A DNA stretch of 64,000 nucleotides from Squalus acanthias (Eukaryota): assembly GCA_030390025.1 (NCBI GenBank), contig CM059438.1, positions 77,438,001 through 77,502,000 on the forward strand. The letters are read 5' to 3'. The position numbers and the translations under genes were made by a program. Within the stretch, counting starts at the first letter, position 1, and the number at the start of each line of letters is the position of its first letter. Positions 5,701 through 64,000 of this stretch are shown here, piece after piece. Under the pieces are notes generated by a model. The model was not told the origin of the DNA, did no database searches, and saw nothing but the letters and a program-made list of their open reading frames with translations.

Positions 5701-8700
5701 TTGATCTATGCACTGAAGAGTCTTTCATTTCATTGACTCAAAGCTTGACATTCATTTGAAATTTCATTCAATTCTGGCTGGTTGACGATTTTCCCCCTCC
5801 ATTTCTATAGACTTTGATTTGTTTGCTTTGACTTGATTTGATGTCTTATTTCCTCTGCCACTGCAAATTGAATTTTAAAGCTTCACTAGCTCACACAAGT
5901 TATTATAGTATGAAAAGGACAAAGAAATTTGATATCTTTATATCCATGAATTAAAACATGGAGCGCGAAAGAAAGCACTTCAAGATTTTATCTCAGAAGT
6001 TATTCACATTCATTATACATAGCATCGCAGTGAATGGAATAGTTTTGTACACTTGATTTTTTTAAAAATCTTAAGGAACAATTGATGTCAGTTGATCCTA
6101 GGTTTGTAATACAGGTATCTGAAATAATTTAACAGTTAATTTGGAAGGTTTTTTTTACATAACCTGAATCAAGTGTCTTAGATATCACAAATAGTGCTTT
6201 GTCAAAGCATAATTTAATCATTCATATGACATTGTCTTTTCTGTTATGTACGAATAGATCATCTATATATGATACAGCTCATCTATTAATAGATTGATTT
6301 TCAAAACCATCTTTTCTAGGAATGAAATAGTGAAATTGAGAACAGAGATAACTGAACTGCAAGATCGACGTGGAGAAGACCTGTCAGTAAGTGAGAATGA
6401 AGACACTGAGGAAGAAATCGATGATGAGAGCGAAGGTAGCCTAAGAAAGACAGTTTTGAGGTTGAAAATTAAACTGAAGAATCACAAAAAGATAAATGAA
6501 CTTCTTAAGCAGCAAGTAGAACTTAACTCCTCTGGAGAGGGTGAAAATAATTTTAACCCTGACCTGATTGTAAACATGGCCAAAGAAATTGAACACCTGA
6601 AAGCTGAACTGGAAACTGCCAATCAAATGATAGCGAGCACGGACGGAAGACTGAGAGAAATGAAGACAAAAGAGCGGAAAGGGCTCCACGGGTCAAAGCT
6701 GCCACGGTCAAAATCTTTAGAGTTTCGAAACCACAAGGCAAAGAACACAGAGCAGATGTCTGATCAGTCTGTTATTTCTGCAATCCCTGTGGCTATTACA
6801 GTAAGTTCTTCTGTCTTTCTGTTAAGAGGCCATTTATTTTGTGAGCCTGGTACCATGTGAAAGCATGCACAGACTTTGTTCTAGGAGCATACCTCAGTCC
6901 TTTTTCTACTGTCACTAGTACTGGTTCCATTGTCAAAACACCCCACGAAAAATATCACTTAGTATTAGGGTTGCAAAATTCCGGGAATTTTTTAAAGAGG
7001 AAACTTTCCATGGGAATTTTTGGGAATTTTGAGTTTTTTTGCACACTGATGGTTTTTGTCTCTAACCCTTATATTATCTTTGTCATCAAAATAGACATAC
7101 TGTTCCATACAAATAAAAACAGGCTTTCAAAACTTTATTTAGGTTATAATTTTGAACTTTATTGAACCCCCACAAAAAAGACCCATCTAAAATAAAATAA
7201 AAAGTGCGTCAGCTTATTTAGCCTGTAATTTGTTCTTATTTTGTCTCTTTGAGTCTTCTACTTCTGAGTCTTCTACTCCTCATTGCTCCTCCTGATTCTC
7301 TGACTCTGGCTCTGATGTGTCCATTTCCTCCTCTGTGTCACTGTCTAGCTGTGTGGTGGACACTTCTGTATCTGGCTCAATAAGTTGTAGGTTCGCCCGG
7401 ATAGCCAACAGTTTCTCCACTCTCTTGTTAGTCAACCTGTTGCGCACCTTTGTATGCGTATTCCCAAAAAGTGACCAGTTTCAATGGGTGACAGGGCCTC
7501 AGATGCACAAAGTCCCTTCCACCAGGTATGTGCACTGATATGCTTGCATGATTCCCATATCCCGTCCCCATTCCAAAGACCTTGCTTGGTAGAGAACTTT
7601 GCCAGACTTCCCAGAACTTTGCCCACGTCCAGATTGAGGTGGCGTGAGAGGGTAGGAATCACACTAAGTGCTGTTGATCTGTTCTCCAAAAAGTATTGGT
7701 CTCCCAACATGCTTTGGGTCCAGCATGTATGCTGCAGCATGAATCGGCTTGACACAAAATTCTTGACGCATCTGTATGAATTGAACAATTGCCTTCTCTC
7801 TGCTTTGAGCAGTAGGGATGTGGGTAGGGCAATGCTGATTTGTTCTTTTAAATCAGCAAAAAGCCTGAACATCTGACAAGACAGCGTCATCTCCTTCAAT
7901 CTGAGCAATTGCAGATGCTACTGGTGAGAGTAGTTTAAGGCTGCTAACCACTCTCTCTCCCAAAACACATCATCCAGCAGTATTTTCTTGATGGTGGTTT
8001 CCATATCCCCAGACTGGGATATTGCCATTTCTTGCAGCGACTCCTTACCCTCCAGAAGGCTGTTGTACATTATGACAACGCCACCCCATCTAGTGTTGCT
8101 GGGCAGCTTCAGTGTGGTGTTCTTGTTCTTTGTTGTTTGCTTGGAGTTGTAGGTTGCTGCAACTACCTGTTTTCCCCTGACATACTTAACAACTTGCTTG
8201 GCTCTCTTGTACAGTGTTTCCATGGTTCTCAAACCCATGATGTCATGGAGGAGCAGGTTGAGCCCATGAGCTGCGCACCCAATAGATGTAATATGAGGGT
8301 AGGCCTCCTCCACTTGAGCCCAAGCAGCCTTCATATTCGCAGCATTGTCAGTAACTACTGCAAAGACCTTTTGTGATCCAAGATTGTTGATGACCGCTTT
8401 CAGCTTATAAGCAATGTATGTGCCTGTGTCTGTTGTCCTTCGTGTCTGTGCTCTTGAGAACACTGGGAGAGGAGTGGAGACGATGTAGTTTATGATGCCC
8501 TCCCCTCGTACATTTGACCACCCATCTGAGATCACTGCAACACAGTCTGTCATCTCTATTGTTTCTCTGAGCTTTCCTTGGACTCTGTTATACTCAGCCT
8601 CCAGCAAATAAGTAGACGAAGCATGTCTGGTGGGAGGACAGTATGCAGGGCGAATAACATTGAACAATCTCTTCCAGTACACATTGGCTGTGAGCATGAG

Positions 8701-11700
8701 GGGTGAGCCTGTCGCATATACAGCTCGAGCAAGGCACTCATCTGCATTCTTCTGGCTATGGTTATCCATTGTATCAAAGAACCTTCCAAGTGGGCCAGGA
8801 GTTGCTGATGATAAGGAGCCTGATGCTGAATGTGAACCATCATCTTCTTAAATGGAAGCAGTGGAACTCTGGGCTGACTGCTGTGAGCTTTGAGTGAAGT
8901 TGTTGCATTTGGATAAATGCTGCTGCATCTTTGTGGCATTCTTTACATATGGCTTTGTACAGTGTTTGCACATGTACACAGTCTTTCCATCTTTAATGCC
9001 TGGGGTAAAATGCTTCCACACATCCGACGGTAAACGTGGCATTGTTCTATGCAGAGAAATAAAGGGCATTCGTCTCTGTGTCGAACTGCGGTCGATCAGC
9101 ACGATTGCAACAAGCCAGGGTGAGTACATTTTTCCTGATGCTCCATGTGATGGAAGCATGACCTGTGCACGCACGACGCTACATCACCAATAGAGGGAGC
9201 TAATCGCTCATCCAACCAATCAGGACACATTTGTTCACAGTCTCACACAAAACTTGTAATTATTAAAACAAGCCAAGTAACAAGATAAACATATATTGAT
9301 TAAGAAATTCCTTAATAATTAAGATTCCATCTCTGTTAGTAATTTTAAGAGAGGACCTGTGGGGGAAAAAAAAAAGAAAGACAAAAAAAAACAATATTAT
9401 GCTAGTATATGCTTTTTTGGGCAAAATTCCCAAGCTGAACTTCCCGTGGAAAATTTCCGGAAATTTACCGGAAACTTTCCACCCCTTTGCAACCCTACTT
9501 AGTATTATTTTGTCAGTCTTTTCCGATATTTTAATGTCCTTAATGTATTTTTGTTCCTTTTGTCAAATGTTAAAATGGAAGGATATAATTTTGGATTTTT
9601 ACCTTGACTGGTTATATTCACCCAAAGGCCTGTGGCACAATTCATTGAGACAGGCACCTGATGCTATTCAGACAACACTCTTGCTATAATGGACCATATT
9701 CTGGCCTGTATCTGATGCCCTTAATGTGGCGTCCGGGTTTGCAGCCAATTGAGAGCGTAACTAAGAGGCGGCCAGTCACTTTGTTACACTAATGATTTTG
9801 TGGCAAATGTTAAACTGCAGTGCCCAACCACTCAATTTTCATTTGACGACATGCTCCCTTCACAGTATGGGGTGCTCATCTCCAGGGAGCTTGGAATCCA
9901 GGGATATAGACTCTGCCACATACTCCTTGGAACATTAATAACCTTGAGCGTTCATCAGTGTGGCTGTCGTTACTAATCTGTAATAAATCAGACTGAGTGA
10001 AGCAGTAACTCAATACGGATCTCTATATTGAAGGGTATTCTAACAATCGACTACATGTAACCAAATACAAAAAATACTGTAGGTTCTAAAATATTTTTGA
10101 AACTTTGGTTTCCCTTTGCTATTAATAAAAGCCCGAATGCATGTATTTTATTCAGATCAATACTAGGTCTCGCCTCCCTGTCCCACTGAAACGGCCAAAG
10201 TCTGTCAACAATGTGAACTCTGCCACCGCTAGCCAAGATATCCCTCCTGACCATCAACAAGTTGATCAGTTGAGGGCAGTATTGAAAGACTACAAACTGC
10301 TGAACAAACAGTTGCAGAGTAAGTTGTATGCAGCTGAGGCAACACTTGCCAGCCAGGCAGAGAAATTAAAGCTTCATTGTACTCCTATCCATGGTAAGTA
10401 GCTCAGCATTGTTTGTAAAGAGCAATTGTGCAGTAGCATTATTCAGCGTTTCAAAATGATGGAAAGTTTGCAGAGTGAACCTCTCCCACTCCCAGTCTGC
10501 TCATTGTGTCAGCAATTGCTTTAACTAAGTGCTATTTTCAAACAGTGGTTACCGTTTTAGTTATATTTTTAAATGGGACCTTGATCTCCCTTGATTTATA
10601 TGGCCAGGCTTTTTAGTTATAAGCAGACTAATTCCCAGGCAGCAGCTGTGAAAGGCACAGTGCCAGGATTATTGGATGGAGAAAGAAGAGTGAAATAATG
10701 GCTTCTAGGAGGCCCACATAGCTTTCTAGCTCTGACTCTTGACACATCAGTGCCACAAACAGCAACAGAGCACAGATACAACCAGGCCCCTGCAGGCACC
10801 AGCATCATTGCTGAAATCTCTGTCGACAGCATGATTTATATGGTGAGCCTTTTTATTTGTAACGTGAGAACATGCTTCAAATGGAATATGAAATTTGGCA
10901 ATATTTTGTGGTCCTTAGATTTGATGCATTTATACGAATTAATAGAGGAAATTTTCTAGTCAACATTGCTGGTGGTGCAGGAGTGGAATAGGGAAGGGTT
11001 TGGAAAATCAGCTGGAGATCCATTTCATTGGATTGCAAAGTTCTGGTCAGGGCTTAAGGAAGTTTTTAGGATCTCTTGCCAAAAGCGGGAAAGAAATTCT
11101 TTTCAATATTATAATGTATTGTAACAGCTACTTGCTATCGCACACAAATTTTCAATGATTCTCACCAGAATTAAATTTGGCGTTATAAAACAGGTAGTCA
11201 TGCTCTGGGCTAACAGGAAGTCTGCATTTAAATGGGGCCTGCTGTTTCTGAAGAATATCTGAAAGTATAATTTATCTTTAAATTTGTGTTAAGTGTTCTC
11301 CATTATTATTTGTGTCAGGTTATTTGTGACGAATTTTGGCTACCAGTTGCTGCGCTTATAATTGTGAAAATGGCTATTCTATTTTTGTGGTGGTCTGAGG
11401 ATCAATAAGGGCTGCAAGGCAGGTCAGATTGCATTGGGGTGGACTGCATTTACTTGGGCTTATCCACAAAGCCATATCTACAGGCAGAGATGCCAACCTT
11501 AGAATGAATAAAACTGCCTATGCAGGCTGCACTTCACTTGAGATGCAGTGACCAAGGTCTTGCTGTCTCTTGGAATCTGATCTCCCGACAACTTCCATCG
11601 CAGGGGCAGCGCTGCCAATGGCTGTCAGTCATCACAGTCCTGAAATTTTATGCGTTTAGCTCATTCTAAGCTGCCACAGGAAACATCCGCAACAGCAGCC

Positions 11701-20700: not shown

Positions 20701-23700
20701 CACGGTCCCTGGGCCCGCTCCACTACCCACAGGGCCATGACCGATCCGAACCTAGACTCATGTCCAAATTCCTGCCCGCTCCCCGTAACCCTTAATGCCC
20801 TTTACTTCTAGGAAACTGTCTATTTCTGTTTTAAATTTATTTAATGATGTAGCTTCTACAGCATTTTGTGGCAGCATATTCCATAGGACCTACCACCCTC
20901 TGAGTGAAGTAGTTCCTCCTCATCTCAGTTTTGAAAGAGCAGCCCCTTATTCTAAGACTATGTCCCCTAGTTCTAGTCTCACCCGTCATCGGGAACATCC
21001 TCCCCGCATCCACCCGATCCAACCCCTTCACAATCTTATGTGTTTCAATAAGATCGCCTCTCATTCTTCTGAACTCCAATGAGTAGAGTCCCAATCTACA
21101 CAACCTCTCCTCATATGACCACCCCCTTATCCCCGGGATTAACCGAGTGAACCTTTTTTGCACTGCCTCGAGAGCAAGGATGTCTTTCCTTAAGTAAGGA
21201 CACCAAAACTGTATGCAGTATTCCAGGTGCGGTCTCACCAATACCTTGTACAACTGAAGCAATACCTCCCTATTTTTATATTCTATCCCCCTAGCAATGA
21301 AAGCCAACATTCCATTTGCCTTCTTAATCACTTGCTGCACCTGCATACTAACCTTTTGAGTTTCGTGCACCAGGACCCCCAGATCCCTTTGCACTTCAGT
21401 ACTCTCCAGTTTCTTGCCATTAAGATCATAAATTGCTCTAGGATTTTTCCTGCCAAAGTGCATCACCTCACACTTTCCAGTGTTGTATTCCATCTGCCAA
21501 ATCTCTGCCCACTTACTTAGCCTGTCTATGTCCCCTTGCAGATTTTTTATGTCCTCCTCACTCACTACTTTCCCTCCCATCTTTGTATCATCTGCAAATT
21601 TTGATATGTTACACTTGGTCCCTTCCTCCAAATCGTTAATATAGATTGTAAAGAGTTGGGGACCCAGCACTGACCCCTGTGGAACACCACTAGTTACTGA
21701 TTGCCAGTCTGAGAATGAACCATTTATCCCAACTCTTTGATTTCTGTTAGATAGCCAATCCTCTATCCATGCCAGAATATTACCCCCAATCCCGTGATTT
21801 TTTACCTTAAGCAATAATCTTTTGTGTGGCACCTTGTCAAATGCCTTTTGGAAGTCTAAATACACTACATCTACTGGTTCCCCTTTATCCACTCTATATG
21901 TTACTTCCTCAAAGAACTCCAGCAAATTTGTCAAACATGACTTCCCCTTCGTAAAACCATGCTGACTTTGTCCTATTAAATTATGATTATCCAAATGTCC
22001 TGTTACTGTTTCCTTAATAATGGACTCCAAAATTTTACCTACCACAGATGTTAGGCTAACCGGTCTATAGTTACCAGCCTTCTGTCTACTGCCCTTTTTA
22101 AATAAGGGTGTTACATTAGCAGTTTTCCAGTCTGCCGGGACCTTAGCGGAATCCAGGGAGTTTTGAAAAATTATTACCAATGCATCTACAATCCCTACCG
22201 CCACTTCCTTCAAGACTCTAGGATGTAAGCCATCAGGTCCAGGTGATTTATCCGCCTTGAGTCCCATCATTTTACCGAGTACCACTTCCTTAGTGATTTT
22301 GATCGTGTTTAGCTCCTCTCCCCCTATAGCCCCCTGTTTGTCCAGTGTTGGGATATTCTTAGTGTCCTCTACTGTAAAGACTGATACAAAATATTCATTC
22401 AGTGTTTTTGCCATCTCCATATTTCCCACCATTAATTTCCAGATTTTGTGTTCGGCGCTATGCAAATGAGTTTGAGTAGAAACTCTTGGTGGTGTGGGGG
22501 GGAGTTGGAAGAGGACACTTCAAAACGGGCGCAATTGGCACCGGAATCACCAATTGCGCCCAAAGTGGAAACACTGTGTGCAAATGTATAGTTTTTGGGT
22601 ATCCAATTTCTCTGCTGAATGTGGCAATAGATGTTTTTATTTGTTAAATGAATTAAGACCTTACAGTGGAGTGGTTCAGTAGCTAAATGCGAGGGTGTTA
22701 AGCTCATAAGAGAATGGAATTAGACTCTGTTTGAATTGACGTTTGTACTTAAGGTTACCTCATACTTAGCCAGAATGTGTGTAGGAGGGAGGAGAAATAG
22801 CCTGTATTATTCAAATAGGCTTTAGGAGAAATGTACCTGGTCAATTCTGACTAGGGATGAAATTGCAAATACTGGGATGGGAATCATTTTACTATAAAAG
22901 TACCTTTTTTGTTAATCAAATAATATAACGATCTGAAATTTCCTGATGCAAGAATTATTAAAACAGATGAAAAGAGTCAGAGTAAGTGTTCAGTTTATAA
23001 ATTTTTGAACCTAGTTCTGTCTGGTTTGTCTAACTATCATAATATAATGAACATTTATTTTTTTATGCTTGTTGGTCTTTTAAATTTTATGGGATTCATA
23101 CTGGACAACAAAAATATTTTAAAAATAAATATGTCTATTTAAATTTGTACTGAAATAACCTACATTTTTCTGCTTCCTTGCCTATTCTTTATATATTGCA
23201 GGGGATGTATCTTCTGTTGGTGGAGACAACACTCTTGATTTCTCTCAAAGGTAGGTAAAGACAAAATATACATGCAAGGCTTTCAAAAACCATGATTTGA
23301 TGCTCTTCATTCAGTTTATCTCAACCCAATTTGACATGTTATCCAGTTACTAAATCGAGGTTAATCTGTACTATTCACTTATAAGCTACCTCCGTTTACC
23401 CAGGATATAGGTCTGCTGACTGGTGTACTGTGATGATTTATTTTGAGACTTTGAAGAGAGAAAGTATCTTTCCCGACAATCTGAAATATTAATTTATATT
23501 GCATTTGTCCTGGATATTTGATTTAATATGCAGCAGGCTGATTTAAAGACATAATGAGATTGGACAATCATCATTTGCGGGGTTTTATTTGCAATCTTAG
23601 TAAAGTATTAATGGTGTGGCAAGTGTACTTGGTTTCACTACATAAGCAAATCCTATTTATAAAGGAGTAGTAGGTGCCCAATTAAGTCTCTCTCTTTTTT

Positions 23701-58073: not shown

Positions 58074-59754
58074 AGTTTTTGTACTCTGATTCTTCCGATG
58101 GAGCTAGTAGCATCTTCATTGGATTCTTCAGCAGATCCCCAACTAAAAGCAGCCAGGGACCAGTCGGTGCCTCCAACTCCACACAAGCACAAACTGCAGC
58201 TCCTAGAAGTATTAGGGGGCAGAATACAGCGCAGCATGCATCGTGGCTTCCAGACCTCTTGTGCCTCCTATGCACATGTCCTCTAATACCCTCATTTGAC
58301 CTGTGCTGCCTGTATAGTCGATCAGGGTCGGTAATATCTGGTGAGTTGCATCCTCTTAAATGTTGACTGAGTTTCCTTCGCTCCATTCTGTGCTACTCCT
58401 CATGATAATGGCATACAAGAGTATGCCCAGAGGGAATTGCATACCTGTTCTTGAGAAGCCTGACTCGGTGAGTGGGAAGTCCTAAAGTCTGATGGGCAGA
58501 AGCAGGTTTGGGTGCTAATCAGCAGAATTGCAAAAAAAATCTCTTAATCATTTCCTAGCTGCAGAAATTCAAAATCTCCAGATTCTTCTGCCAGGAACTC
58601 ATTTTCCGCTTTGATCAAGTGATCCTGCTAGTTGCTGTGCCTCATGTATCCCAGTCTCGAAGTTGCTCAGAGTGCATTAACAGTGCAAAACCAGGGAACT
58701 CCGAGCTGCTGTGCCACTGACCCTCACTTTGACGAATGGGAATTTGGCAGCCGGATTGTGGGAAGACACATCTAGCACAAGAGAACTAATGGTGGAAAAT
58801 GGGCAGAAAAGGCTTGCACCTGCTTTTCCTGCCTAAAATAAATGTCCAACATTGTTTAAACAATGCTAACGCACTGAAAACAGCAAGGAAAGTCACCTTG
58901 TCTTAGGAGCCAAGATACTAAAAAAAAGTGTTGTTTGGACCAGCATATATATATGAAACTTGTGAGCTATAATGAGTAAGCACATTCAATTTCAGTTTGT
59001 CTTGCAATTAATACAGTTTGCAGTGGTTTATTTACAATGATCTGAAATGTAGTGTGAGCATCCACTACAAGCTTTAATACAAAGCAACAATTGCAACATA
59101 AACACATTTGCAAGAAAATTATTTCAGCAGTATTAGCAATTATGTTAATGTTGTAATTCTTTATTCAAAACTTTGATATCATGCAGCAAGTTTTAATATA
59201 AATTTCACTATTGGTTTTATTGCACTATAGCCCATAATGTGCCACTATTCAACAGTTCACAGTTAACAAAGCAGTTCCTGAACAGAGATTAAATAACCTT
59301 TAAGAGTTGTTGCCTTATATTTTTCATAAAGGCCAAAATGAATCATCGTGTGTATTTGAATAATGGACTTCACTCCTCCTATACTTAGACACTAAATTAA
59401 CTACTCCCGCAGCTCGTTTCCGTGTCTCATTTTCACAGCTGGAGATCCAACTTCAAATGCAGATCTTCAGATTATTGGAACCTTGCATAGACTGAATTTT
59501 GTAGCTTATTGTTTGTGATTGGATTTTTCCACAGCCTACGCCTCCATGCTCAACATTAACTTCAAACAGTGCCTAATAAATTATATTACAACCAAGAAAA
59601 GCAACAATATATACAGCTAGTTGATCCGGTTGCTTCAGTGCAAGGGGAAAAATGCCCAAATTTTGAAAACAGTAAAATTGTGGGGTTTTTTAAAACTGCT
59701 TTTCTGTGTGGCAGTCGAGCTATACTGCAGCAACAGTCTACAATACTGATAACG

Positions 59755-60455
59755 TGTCCTGGAGTGCATGTCCACAGATCCCTGAAGGTAGCAGGCCAAG
59801 TAGATAAGGTGGTTAAGAAGGCATACGGAATGCTTGCCTTTATTAGCCGTGGCATAGAATATAAGAGCGGGGGGGGGGTTATGCTTCAACTGTATAAAAC
59901 ACTAGTTAGGCCTCCGCTAGAGTACTGTGTGCAGTTCTGGTCACCACATTACAGGAAAGATGTGATTGCACTAGAGAGGGTACAGAGGAGATTTACAAGG
60001 ATGTTGCCGGGAGTAGAGAATCTTAGCTATGAGGAAAGACTGGATAGGCTGGGTTTGTTTTCCTTGGAACAGAGGAGGCTGAGGAGAGACCTTATTGAGG
60101 TGTATAAAATTATGAGGGGCATAGATAAAGTGGATAGAAAGGACCTATTTCCCTTAGCAGAGGGGTCAAAACCAGGGGGCACAGATTTAAAGTAATTGGG
60201 GGAAGGATTTGAGGGGAAATTTCTTCACCCAGAGGGTTGTGGGGATCTGGAACTCACTGCCTGAAAGGGTGGTAGAGGCAGGAACCCTAACCACATTTAA
60301 AAAGTACTTGGATGTGCACTTGGGATGTTCTAACCTGCAGGGCTACGGACCAAGAGCTGGAAAGTGGGATTAGGCTGGATAGCTCTTTGTTGGTCGGCGC
60401 GGACACGATGGGCCGAAATGGCCTCCTTCCGTGCTGTAACTTTCTATGATTATAG
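59755..60455 (+). mobile_element. CR1 LINE 3' fragment
   Basis: ORF 59569-60195 becomes a CR1 peptide from GVHVHRSLKV onward; tail gggccgaaatggcctccttccgtgctgtaactttctatg. Confidence 0.9.
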
Positions 60456-61789
60456 GAAAGGTGAACATAGTCACTGGAACTGCATAAAATTATTTTCATT
60501 CCCTCATCCATTAATCTGCAAATTAGTATTGTATCTTTCAATTAACAATTTCATTAGTTATTCTCCACATACCAGATTACGAGCTGCACTGCAGATTGAC
60601 AGGGAGATTCCCCGTAGGAAATCCCGAGGCCACATCTCAACAGCTAACTTTACACATGCTACTCTTAATTTGTAGAAAATCAACCACCAGGAGTCATCTG
60701 GGCATTTAACCAAACATTAGGATCTGCCTTGGATGATAAGCCTCCTCCTTCCTCCTCTTCCCACTTTAGACAAAGGAGCCAGAATGATGAGAGACACCTC
60801 ACTCAGTATGTGGAGGGTATCAAAATAATCTAGATCACTGAAACAATGCGGACTTAATCCACCACTTGAAATTGCCAAACTCAGCTGCACCACAGCATGA
60901 AGCTGTTGATGAGCAAAAGATTTTTCCCACAGTAAGCTGCTGGAAGGCATACAGAAACATTAGCATAGAGACCTGGCACCAAATTGCCAGCCTGTCCTCT
61001 CTGCTGCAAGTGCTGCAGGGGCTAGGAAAACCTCAAGAAGGTGAAATACCCTTTCAAAAAAAGGTGGATAGTTCACTTAGGATGGAAACAAAATTAACCT
61101 CTACATAGCATATTTTCTAACTTCCCTTCCTTCGGACTTTAATATGGACCAATGCCTAGATTATGCAATCTATCTTCTATACAAATGTCTGCAGCACCAT
61201 ATTTTAGTCATGATATGCACCCTGCTGTGCTGTAATGACAACCTAAATTTGTTTCCATGTTAAAAATGTCTACTGTATTGCATTTAAAAAAACTAAACAT
61301 GTTCCATTTGTAGGTAACCTAGGATCATGGAAGATTCATCAACAAATCTCATGCTTCTGGCATGTTTTGACTGAAAGGACTGTTTGATAACATCCCGCTA
61401 CTGAATAGGAAAGTGAAGGCAAGTATAGTTTGGATGAAAAGCTTCACAGGACAAGAATCTCTCCGATTTCCTTAATGCACATTTTATCTTGCCCTAGTAT
61501 GTAGAGAGTAACCTTTTTGAGAATGTGGAATATGATACTAAGCCAAAGCTGCAGGCCATGAGGTAAGTAGAGAGATTCCCTTTTACTCTTTGTTTCTGTA
61601 GAACATTTTCTAATCTAATTGTTATTGGAATTCTAAAAGATCACGTAATTTAGTAGATTTTTTATATAGAATTTTTAAATTCTTTAAAATGGATTATACC
61701 AAATGCCTCTCTGAAGCAGTATCGTCGCTCTGTCTCTAATCATTAAAAAGTAAAACTTTTGAATTGTTTGGAATGTTCTTTACAGACAC

Positions 61790-61795
61790 TTTATT
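61790..61795 (-). promoter_or_regulatory. Candidate polyadenylation signal of the MLLE gene
   Basis: tttatt on + (AATAAA on -), about 285 nt downstream of the stop codon. Confidence 0.4.
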
Positions 61796-62079
61796 GATAA
61801 TTTGTTACTGGGGTTGTGCAATATGCAATTCCAAGCCACCCAAAGTAGATAAATAAATGCCCAGCAGTTCAAAGACAGAACTACTGGTACAAGAAAGCCG
61901 GCAATTTAAAGCTCTTCACTGTTCAATCAACTTATATACCATAAATTGCTCTGTGACTTGCTAGTTTCTTAAATTGATCATCCAAATTAAAACATGGAAA
62001 TTGATGCTGCAGCTGCGATTGCTTTGTAATTTATAGATCATTGTGGGATTTATTAAGTTCCTAACAACTAATCACGTTT

Positions 62080-62186
62080 TCAGCCATCTTTGAGTGCTAA
62101 AGCAGCAATTTGGATCTTCTCGTTCAGTTGTTCTGGTGATTTCAGCAGTTCTGCTAAGCTGTTGCGCGGCATCTCGAGCAACATAC
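62080..62186 (-). CDS. Last coding exon of the tandem-MLLE gene, (G)MLLEMPRNSLAELLKSPEQLNEKIQIAALALKDG*
   Basis: Acceptor tcttctttag|GT ATG TTG CTC GAG completes RITG-MLLE in frame; TGA at 62082-62080; too short for the ORF track. Confidence 0.85.
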
Positions 62187-63224
62187 CTAAAGAAGATTGC
62201 AGAGCTGTTAATGCCATTAAAAGGAGCTATGTGTTCTAATCAAAATCACTAAAACTTTAATTATTTGATGTCCAGACCCTGAGTTACTGTAAGTGATTTT
62301 TACAAAAAACTTAATCAACTTGATATCTCCTTAACACTGCAAAACCACAATTTTAAATGAGGACCACAAATACTCCATCATATATTTCCATCCTATAATA
62401 AGCACACCACAGAAACCTGTATTGCTTTCTTTACAAAGTCACGGATTCCACTGCTGAAAACACTAAATGTAAGCATTTTAGTGATCCCGTCAGTTAAAAC
62501 AGTTTAATGCCACTTATGCTTATACAGCTTCTTTGACCTATGCTCCTACTGAAGCTAATGACCACCAGTTGTGTACTGTTTATCAAGTGGTGCAGTATCT
62601 GTTCTGTTTTCACAGTGGCTTAAGCAGGTAGATGCATTTTTACCACCACCTACATTACTGTAAAGTAGGGGAGTACGAGTTACATGCAGGCAAAGGACAC
62701 TGATCAGCCAGAGACTAAGTGATTTTTTTAATATATAATTTGAAAAGAGCTGCGTCATGTTTTGGGATTTTTGACTATTTACTCTTGGAAGGATTTCCTA
62801 ATGAATTCATATTACGATGATGCTATTAAGTTAAATGGAGCTTACAAAAGGTCCGCAACACAAACTAACGGGAATGTGATTCGAACAAAGTATCTGTCCA
62901 GAATGGTGCTTCCATATACCAAATCAGCCTGAGACAGTAGAGGTATGTTAAGACATGCCAGTGAACAATGTGTTTCAATGGCTTCATTAGCGTAAGATCA
63001 GCAGTGGTTAGTTGCCAGGAGCCCACACCTGGACCAGCAATAACAGGTTTAATTGTTTTACAATTGGTCTTAGCTCAATAGAGTGTTAATCAGTCTGACC
63101 ACGCTTGTGAGATTACAGAATCCAGTTCAGACAACCAGGGGTTTCAGTGTTATGACTCCTGGATCACACTATCACATGACTAGATGTTGGGCAGTAAAGA
63201 TAATCTCCTGAATATAGGCAATGT

Positions 63225-63497
63225 GGGTTCTGTTTATTCAGCGACAGCCAATTTACGCACAGCAAGATCCCACAAACAGCAATGTCATAATGACCAGACA
63301 ATTTGTTTTAGTGATGTTGGTTGAGGGATAAATATTGGCCAGGAAACCAAGAAAAACTTCCCTGATCTCCTTAGAAATAGTGCCATGGATTTTTACATCC
63401 ACGTGAGAGGTCAGACAGGGCCTCAGTTTAAGGTCTCATCCGAAAGACGGCACCTCCAACAGTGCAGCACTCCCTCAGTACTGCACTGGAGTGTCAA
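63225..63497 (-). mobile_element. Deu-domain SINE fragment in the last intron of the MLLE gene
   Basis: ataaatattggccagga...tagtgccatgg...cctccaacagtgcagcactccctcagtactgcactgg. Confidence 0.75.
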
Positions 63498-63572
63498 AGA
63501 TAACTAAGATGTAAAAAAAAAGTGCAAAGAATATATGGTATAAAGGATAGGATCTTTAATAAATACATTTAC

Positions 63573-63812
63573 CTGTTATCCTGCTTGAGAGTTCACTGTA
63601 TTTTGTATTGTTGATGTAACAATATAACTCCTCTCCTAGCTTTTCAGTCTCACTGTCCAGATCACCTCCATCTTCATTAATCAACAAGCAAGAAGAATTC
63701 TGAGTAGCTGACTGCGAGAGAGCTGCCTGTGCTCTTTCAACAGCAGCTTGTAGTGCTAATCTGTCAGTTAGCAACACCTGAATGGCTGAAGGATCTATTT
63801 CCAGGAGCATTC
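63573..63812 (-). CDS. Penultimate exon of an uncharacterised tandem-MLLE (PABC) domain gene: (G)MLLEIDPSAIQVLLTDRLALQAAVERAQAAL-linker-EKLGEELYCYINNTKYSELSSRIT(G)
   Basis: Acceptor ctgttttag|GA ATG, donor ACA G|gtaaat; 240 nt, phase 1-1. Carries the second half of one MLLE domain and the first half of the next (PABPC pattern LGERL...KITGMLLE). Confidence 0.85.
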
Positions 63813-64000
63813 CTAAAACAGAAATGGTTAGTCACTGAGCTTTAGGTTCTTGTTAAATTAGAACCCGATCAACGTAGAGAATTTGGTGAATATAAATTCT
63901 AAAATTGCAAATAGCCTCACCGACATTGATGACAAATATAGCTACTGCAACAATGCATTTAAAAAGTATTTGCAACGACAAAGACAGGCAATATGTACTT

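What the first reader, a model, noticed from the sequence alone, without database searches (positions are those of the whole stretch)
62080..63812. Convergent gene ending in tandem MLLE (PABC) domains built from a symmetric exon module
Seen in sequence: two minus-strand exons splice in frame to give GMLLEIDPSAIQVLLTDRLALQAAVERAQAAL-(acidic linker)-EKLGEELYCYINNTKYSELSSRITG|MLLEMPRNSLAELLKSPEQLNEKIQIAALALKDG*. That is one complete C-terminal MLLE domain preceded by the second half of another. Both exons start at the same position (phase 1 in the Gly before MLLE), so the 240-nt exon is a repeatable unit. Established: vertebrate PABPC1/4/1L and UBR5 carry a single MLLE, which binds PAM2 motifs (PAIP1/2, eRF3, TOB, GW182, ataxin-2, LARP4); UBR5's is followed by a HECT domain; tandem MLLE arrays are known from fungal Rrm4. 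Inference: this is an uncharacterised multi-MLLE adaptor or PAM2 sink that could scaffold or compete for translation and deadenylation factors, and more MLLE exons may lie beyond 64 kb.
Basis: partly seen in the sequence, partly recalled or inferred. Interest (0 to 1): 0.88.

Follow-up and report, generated by a model that had tools for sequence, protein, structure and literature searches.

The report
Ancient animal MLLE-only adaptor protein

Summary
Observation confirmed and extended. The two exons splice as described (4 of 4 runs laid, 2 studies) and both hit Pfam MLLE. Five more coding exons lie past 64 kb. Together they give a protein of about 298 aa with four MLLE domains, acidic linkers and no RRM or HECT, head to head with RPL28. 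In this assembly the first coding exon is one base short; this is unresolved.

The family is wide: four repeats in sharks, chimaera, sturgeon, coelacanth, lungfish and amphioxus; three in teleosts, lamprey, echinoderms, an acorn worm and molluscs; four to six in cnidarians. No tetrapod appeared among the best 120 hits of two searches. The pocket for the PAM2 phenylalanine is kept, but Gly579 and Gln560 are replaced family-wide, and each repeat keeps its own signature.

Best reading: an RNA-free adaptor whose repeats likely bind different PAM2-like motifs. A 2022 paper lists only PABP, UBR5 and Rrm4 as MLLE proteins. The scan had not noted this family; it did note an octopus poly-MLLE array, described there as PABP-derived.

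The parts
63813..64000 (-). 3' end of the 4679-nt intron that leads out of the window. Upstream, in continued window numbering (= G000:C14 77,438,000 + x), lie five coding exons: 68616-68492, 69588-69489, 72140-72028, 72635-72521 (GC donor; GT donor at 72503) and 74495-74379 (ATG at 74474; one base short of the orthologue frame near 74412-74415). A probable non-coding first exon ends at 75411, and RPL28 starts head to head at about 75830.
   Evidence: the first exon is inferred from its donor, the CpG island and contig lengths; upstream exons not checked against reads
63573..63812 (-). Coding exon 6, 240 nt, phase 1-1: C-terminal half of MLLE repeat 3, acidic linker, N-terminal half of repeat 4
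62187..63572 (-). 1386-nt GT-AG intron holding a high-copy repeat at about 63250-63500
   Evidence: joint in 4 of 4 runs; very high depth over the repeat
62080..62186 (-). Coding part of the last exon: C-terminal half of repeat 4 and TGA
60422..62079 (-). 3' UTR of at least 1.5-1.6 kb. The true end is unknown, because the contigs stop where a high-copy repeat begins. AATAAA at 62054 and 61795.

Best explanation
The gene encodes a small acidic protein made of four MLLE domains on acidic linkers with no RNA-binding or enzyme domain, and it likely acts as a multi-site adaptor whose repeats would bind different PAM2-like peptide motifs in mRNA-regulating proteins. Shown: gene structure, splicing of the last intron, four Pfam MLLE domains, family range and residue patterns. 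Predicted: four independent four-helix bundles (helix 1 of PABP's MLLE is absent) joined by flexible linkers. Inferred: repeats 1 and 4 keep the pocket for the PAM2 Phe, Lys/Arg580 and mostly a small residue at 579, so they are the best candidates for near-canonical PAM2 motifs. Repeat 2 (Glu/Gln579) and repeat 3 (no Lys580 in jawed vertebrates; Cys578 and Ala606) would read variant motifs. The protein would thereby bring two or more motif-bearing factors together off the poly(A) tail, for example deadenylation, termination or granule proteins, much as Rrm4's main and accessory MLLEs do but without RRMs.
For: Four MLLE stretches in the sawshark and sevengill orthologues (E 2.6e-60, 1.4e-58), and no other family over cut-off. 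AlphaFold2 of the sawshark orthologue with 104 sequences: pLDDT about 90 in four domains, below 50 in three linkers, pTM 0.31 (similar). The first 21 Foldseek rows listed are all MLLE structures, rmsd 0.6-2.4 A, though none reaches E 0.001. Phe-pocket residues named in PMC2854688 and PMC7356810 are kept in the named family domains: G563 67/76, E/D564 68/76, F/Y567 72/76, T582 74/76, L586 72/76, K/R580 56/76. The repeats differ in ways tied to position. In jawed vertebrates each repeat forms its own clade (support 0.99, 0.89, 0.97, 0.80; the repeat-3 clade also takes in one insect domain). The repeat-3 marks picked from vertebrates recur in the penultimate repeat of invertebrates: Cys578 in 7/11 against 0/21 other repeats, Ala606 in 11/11 against 3/21 (species are related, so these are not independent counts). 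Where present, domains are 49-78% identical to the sawshark across 8 jawed vertebrates, linkers only 10-50%. Precedent for unequal tandem MLLEs: Rrm4 (PMC9249222, PMC11572963; passages read).
Against: Gly579, which PMC2854688 ties to the close approach of the PAM2 backbone, is present in only 6/76 named family domains against 23/32 PABP-type domains. Gln560 is present in 0/30 jawed-vertebrate domains (26 acidic, 4 Asn). So canonical PAM2 binding may be weak or absent. The UBR5-type domain of this genome has Ser at 579 and human UBR5 binds PAM2 (PMC11572963), which softens this point. Repeat number varies from 2 to 6, and teleosts have lost repeat 4, which fits simple avidity as well as a fixed scaffold. 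No partner is identified. This assembly's first coding exon is frameshifted.
Confidence: 0.5

Rival explanations
1. Decoy or buffer: the protein binds canonical PAM2 motifs (PAIP2, eRF3, TOB, PAN3, GW182, ataxin-2) by avidity. Having no RNA-binding part, it titrates these factors away from poly(A)-bound PABP and so damps deadenylation, silencing or PAIP2 repression.
For: No domain other than MLLE. The Phe pocket is kept in all repeats. Repeat number is flexible, 2 to 6. The genome has PAM2 motifs to bind: 11 matches to PF07145.
Against: A pure sponge would not need position-specific signatures that recur from molluscs to fish. Gly579 and Gln560 are replaced family-wide. Repeat 3 lacks Lys580 in 104/104 jawed-vertebrate sequences.
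Confidence: 0.25
2. The repeats keep the MLLE fold but no longer read PAM2-type motifs; they bind another class of partner, or each other, outside mRNA control.
For: Family-wide changes at 560 and 579, and changes at 580 and 606 in repeat 3. Rrm4 MLLE1 and MLLE2 bind neither PAM2 nor PAM2L (PMC9249222, passages).
Against: Rrm4's non-binding domains lack the canonical Gly (563 in PABPC1 numbering, my mapping), whereas 67/76 named family domains keep it, along with the rest of the Phe pocket. Holding a surface pocket constant that long points to an aromatic peptide ligand.
Confidence: 0.17
3. The family is real, but this shark's copy is damaged. The one-base deficit in coding exon 1 is genuine, so only forms starting at the second Met or using an early donor (repeats 2-4) are made, or the gene is decaying.
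For: The ATG frame stops after 28 codons, and orthologues need one more base. The genome has one locus and no second copy. Several sharks have annotated isoforms that start at the second Met or skip this part (P0002, P0122).
Against: The deficit lies in a short C run, a typical long-read assembly error (general knowledge). All other exons are intact and match two orthologues at 79-97% identity. The gene is spliced in 4 of 4 runs. The closest relatives have the full frame (P0001, P0124).
Confidence: 0.12

Closest known systems
Rrm4 of Ustilago maydis (three C-terminal MLLE domains; PMC9249222, PMC11572963)
   Same: Tandem MLLE domains on flexible linkers; repeats unequal in their pocket residues.
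   Different: Rrm4 has three N-terminal RRMs, is fungal, and its MLLE3 has seven helices. This family has no RRM, predicted four-helix repeats, and keeps Gly563 in nearly all repeats.
Cytoplasmic poly(A)-binding proteins PABPC1/4/1L (single MLLE; PDB 3KUS, 3KUJ)
   Same: Pfam PF00658, the KITGMLLE-type helix 3, Phe-pocket residues, fold.
   Different: No RRMs; four domains; helix 1 missing; Gln560 acidic; Gly579 mostly replaced. Intron positions differ: 4 of 4 PABP-type loci of this genome are split at Gly563 and after Lys606, whereas this gene is split at Gly583 in every repeat.
UBR5/EDD/HYD MLLE (PDB 1I2T, 3NTW)
   Same: Short MLLE (TM 0.92 to the 61-residue 1I2T by target length); a non-Gly residue at 579.
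   Different: UBR5's single MLLE sits in a 2800-aa HECT ligase; there is no HECT here, and UBR5's exon has no intron at Gly583.
Lineage-specific tandem expansions of the PABP C-terminus (for example P0175, P0182, P0207; octopus array in scan note e1-8666990)
   Same: Several MLLE domains, in some cases without RRMs.
   Different: Their repeats are near-identical to PABP's MLLE and group with it in the tree. The family here is separated by a long branch (0.52, support 0.80) and has old, position-specific repeats.

Membership tests
MLLE/PABC domain (PF00658) | Pfam hit over curated cut-off | tested here: met
   Window peptides 27.2-36.2 bits; orthologues four stretches, 185-201 bits
MLLE/PABC domain (PF00658) | Helical bundle with helix-3 KITGMLLE signature | tested here: met
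   Four predicted four-helix bundles (model of the sawshark orthologue); top Foldseek rows all MLLE but E above 0.001
MLLE/PABC domain (PF00658) | Phe pocket: Gly563, Glu564, Phe567, Thr582, Leu586 | tested here: met
   67-74 of 76 named family domains at each position, with Tyr often at 567
Canonical PAM2-binding MLLE (PABPC1 type) | Gln560, Gly579, Lys580, Lys606 contacts (PMC2854688) | tested here: not met
   Gln560 0/30 in jawed vertebrates; Gly579 6/76, Lys/Arg580 56/76; Lys606 invariant only in repeat 4
Canonical PAM2-binding MLLE (PABPC1 type) | Measured binding to PAM2 peptides | not testable with these tools
   Needs ITC or pull-down
PABPC | Four N-terminal RRMs | tested here: not met
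   The ATG lies about 1.4 kb from the RPL28 start, leaving no room for them; no RRM in full-length orthologues
PABPC | Single MLLE with introns at Gly563 and Lys606 | tested here: not met
   Four MLLEs, each with an intron at Gly583
UBR5 | HECT, UBR box and UBA domains | tested here: not met
   the genome's UBR5-like MLLE lies elsewhere (C8)
Rrm4 | Three RRMs plus three MLLEs, fungal | tested here: not met
   No RRM; animal distribution

The most novel reading that the evidence does not exclude
Animals have had a fourth class of MLLE protein since the cnidarian-bilaterian ancestor: an RNA-free poly-MLLE hub that reads its own code of PAM2-like motifs and organises or buffers the poly(A)-tail regulators. 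It was lost at the origin of tetrapods, so fish and invertebrate mRNA turnover has a layer that human, mouse and frog work could never have shown.
Probability: 0.35. Interest if true: 0.88.

Novelty: new variant of a known kind. Interest (0 to 1): 0.72.

Why it matters
PMC9249222 (2022) states that only PABPC1, UBR5 and fungal Rrm4 are described as MLLE proteins, and calls Rrm4 the first with several MLLE domains. A conserved MLLE-only family across cartilaginous and bony fish, cyclostomes, amphioxus, echinoderms, molluscs and cnidarians adds a fourth kind. It is present in laboratory-friendly animals (cyprinids, killifish, stickleback, sea urchin, Nematostella), is small and soluble by prediction, and can be tested directly with peptide arrays and knock-outs. 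It bears on how many PAM2 proteins share PABP's single docking site, and on which motif variants MLLE domains can read. If the tetrapod absence holds, it also marks a difference in mRNA control between fish models and mammals.

Tried and rejected
Complex prediction: the sawshark orthologue with a 36-residue eRF3-like tandem-PAM2 peptide from this genome gave 'no answer' (score 0.00, alignment not used, peptides untested in the benchmark). It is used neither for nor against.

No holder is on record as RNA; 'RNA' is the tool's guess, so the evidence used is the splice joint itself.

IQ-TREE timed out. FastTree on 60 match columns was used instead, leaving out all unnamed representatives and five PABP-like proteins (P0160, P0185, P0189, P0192, P0208). 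Its deep nodes are weak, and it cannot prove that cnidarian and bilaterian proteins share one origin.

A Pfam MLLE search of the genome found 5 loci (PABP- and UBR5-type) and missed this gene, likely because each domain is cut in half by an intron.

No canonical PAM2 motif was found inside 148 family proteins, so there is no sign of self-inhibition through a canonical motif.

A processed-pseudogene source for the spliced contigs is unlikely, as the genome has one locus; the joined form was not checked in DNA runs.

The ESM Atlas gave only automatically named MLLE clusters. Four further Atlas requests for the neighbour gene did not complete. The bacterial promoter scan was irrelevant.

Literature: 10 searches gave no paper on this family. 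One search was uninformative, since 0 of the 25 papers listed held 'MLLE domain'. PMC4566254 is not held. Subscription journals and supplements were not seen.

Synteny in other species could not be tested.

Full report
Observation. The window is G000:C14:77,438,001-77,502,000 of a 3.7-Gb genome. The closest proteins found are from sharks, 89-90% identical to the sevengill and sawshark orthologues. Of 12 runs listed I laid 4, from 2 studies. All 4 hold a contig that skips exactly the 1386-nt intron with canonical ends and continues 494-731 letters 5' of the 240-nt exon. The tool calls these runs RNA only by guess, but the genome has a single locus for the gene, so spliced mRNA is the simplest source. 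Pfam MLLE is hit at or over cut-off by 3 of 3 peptides.

The whole gene. Reading on past 64 kb gives five more coding exons, at 74495-74379, 72635-72521 (or -72503), 72140-72028, 69588-69489 and 68616-68492 in continued window numbering. A probable non-coding first exon lies in a CpG island, and RPL28 starts head to head a few hundred bases away. With the orthologue frame the exons add up to 298 codons plus stop, the length of the sawshark and sevengill proteins. In this assembly coding exon 1 is one base short in a short C run, so the ATG frame stops early. Neither this nor the upstream joints were checked against reads. An assembly error is likely but not shown. All four repeats carry a phase-1 intron at the Gly before the MLLE motif, whereas the 4 PABP-type loci and the 1 UBR5-type locus of this genome have none there. 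That intron therefore likely predates the repeats. Only the last module is a single symmetric exon; the two upstream modules have an extra phase-2 intron in the linker. One predicted Heptranchias isoform skips exactly the 240-nt exon and yields three MLLEs (P0022).

The family. A profile search gave 1058 hits, of which the best 120 were listed, 104 of them named. Sharks, rays, chimaera, sturgeon, bichir, coelacanth and lungfish have four repeats; teleosts have three, having lost repeat 4. All carry names such as 'uncharacterized', 'hypothetical' or 'PABC domain-containing', or automatic PABP-like or hyd-like labels. A full HMMER search of 50%-identity representatives gave 1549 hits, best 150 listed. 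I looked up 20 of these and 15 had a name, directly or through cluster members: amphioxus, acorn worm, starfish, sea urchin, lamprey, hagfish, a nemertean, scallop, limpet, two further gastropods, a cephalopod, a planthopper, Nematostella and Pocillopora. These have 2-6 detected MLLE domains and little else. The repeat-3 marks seen in vertebrates recur in the penultimate repeat of the 11 named invertebrate bilaterians: Cys578 in 7/11 against 0/21 other repeats, Ala606 in 11/11 against 3/21. This points to one bilaterian family. A fast tree separates the family from PABP and UBR5 domains by a long branch of modest support (0.80) and recovers each jawed-vertebrate repeat as a clade, the third with one insect domain inside. 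The cnidarian link is weaker. The same search also returned unrelated PABP-derived tandem expansions.

Tetrapods. None is named among the best 120 of 1058 hits with a mostly shark profile, or among the best 120 of 536 with a coelacanth-lungfish profile (105 named). Of 146 representatives compared with 14 named members, only 3 had a lobe-finned best hit, at 28-36% identity. This suggests loss in tetrapods, but the lists are cut at 120, word-based and length-limited, so it is not proof.

Structure and pockets. AlphaFold2 on the sawshark orthologue predicts four confident four-helix bundles and three low-confidence linkers, with no fixed packing (pTM 0.27 and 0.31). The first 21 Foldseek rows listed are all MLLE structures, although none reaches E 0.001. 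The proteins are acidic: 54 Asp+Glu against 26 Lys+Arg in the sawshark. I used human PABPC1 numbering, anchored and by passages of PMC2854688 and PMC7356810. The Phe pocket is kept in 67-74 of 76 named family domains at each position. Position 560 is never Gln in 30 jawed-vertebrate domains, and Gly579 is kept in only 6 of 76. Repeat 1 keeps Lys580 and, outside elasmobranchs, mostly Gly579, but loses Lys606. Repeat 2 has Glu or Gln at 579. Repeat 3 has lost Lys580 and Lys606. Repeat 4 keeps Lys/Arg580 and Lys606.

Mechanism. A protein with nothing but peptide-docking domains can bridge ligands or sequester them. Old, position-specific differences between repeats, on a conserved aromatic pocket with an altered rim, fit a bridging adaptor that reads several PAM2-like motifs (0.5) better than a plain PAM2 sponge (0.25) or a fold reused for other partners (0.17). 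These steps are inference; no partner is identified. That this shark's copy is truly broken is a separate possibility (0.12).

Comparison with what is known. It works like the MLLE platform of Rrm4 but fails membership of Rrm4, PABPC and UBR5 on their defining domains. PMC9249222 (passages read) lists only those three kinds of MLLE protein. I also read passages of PMC11572963, PMC12852828 and PMC3018788; those passages do not mention such a family. Ten searches found no paper on it; subscription journals and supplements were not seen. The scan's own notes held nothing by place or sequence and one octopus poly-MLLE array, described there as PABP-derived, which I did not test.

Verdict. Real, spliced, conserved and apparently undescribed: a new architecture of a known domain, present in databases but uncharacterised. 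Interest 0.72.

Noticed in passing
window 2573-48515 (+), 3' region perhaps to about 58000: Many exons of a large coiled-coil gene of the CDK5RAP2/myomegalin (PDE4DIP) family, convergent with the MLLE gene (E 4e-13; weak CC_CDK5RAP2 Pfam hits). That it is PDE4DIP rather than CDK5RAP2 is recalled, not tested.
   Followed up: partly
L007:1821-4881 (+): RPL28 starts head to head with a pyrimidine-run (TOP-like) start; a shared bidirectional CpG-island promoter is likely. From recall, human RPL28 has a different gene in this position.
   Followed up: partly
L007:1440-1535 (-): Three imperfect copies of a 31-nt unit, each with TGACGC words and an ATG, in or just before the probable first exon; possible promoter elements or upstream ATGs.
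   Followed up: no
L006:8503-8521 (-): Alternative GC and GT donors 18 nt apart; both isoforms (298 and 304 aa) are annotated in other sharks.
   Followed up: partly
window 7921-9183 (-): Broken DNA-transposon-like remnant in an intron: zf-BED and DUF659 hits in two frames.
   Followed up: partly
window 20840-22519 (-), 59560-60373 (+), 63250-63500: LINE-like reverse-transcriptase remnants and a high-copy SINE-like repeat (family labels recalled).
   Followed up: no
proteins P0160, P0175, P0182, P0185, P0189, P0207, P0236: Proteins not looked up by name, with 2-7 near-identical PABP-type MLLE repeats, apparently independent recent expansions; P0151 and P0180 have 4-6 MLLEs inside proteins of 1200-1600 aa.
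   Followed up: no
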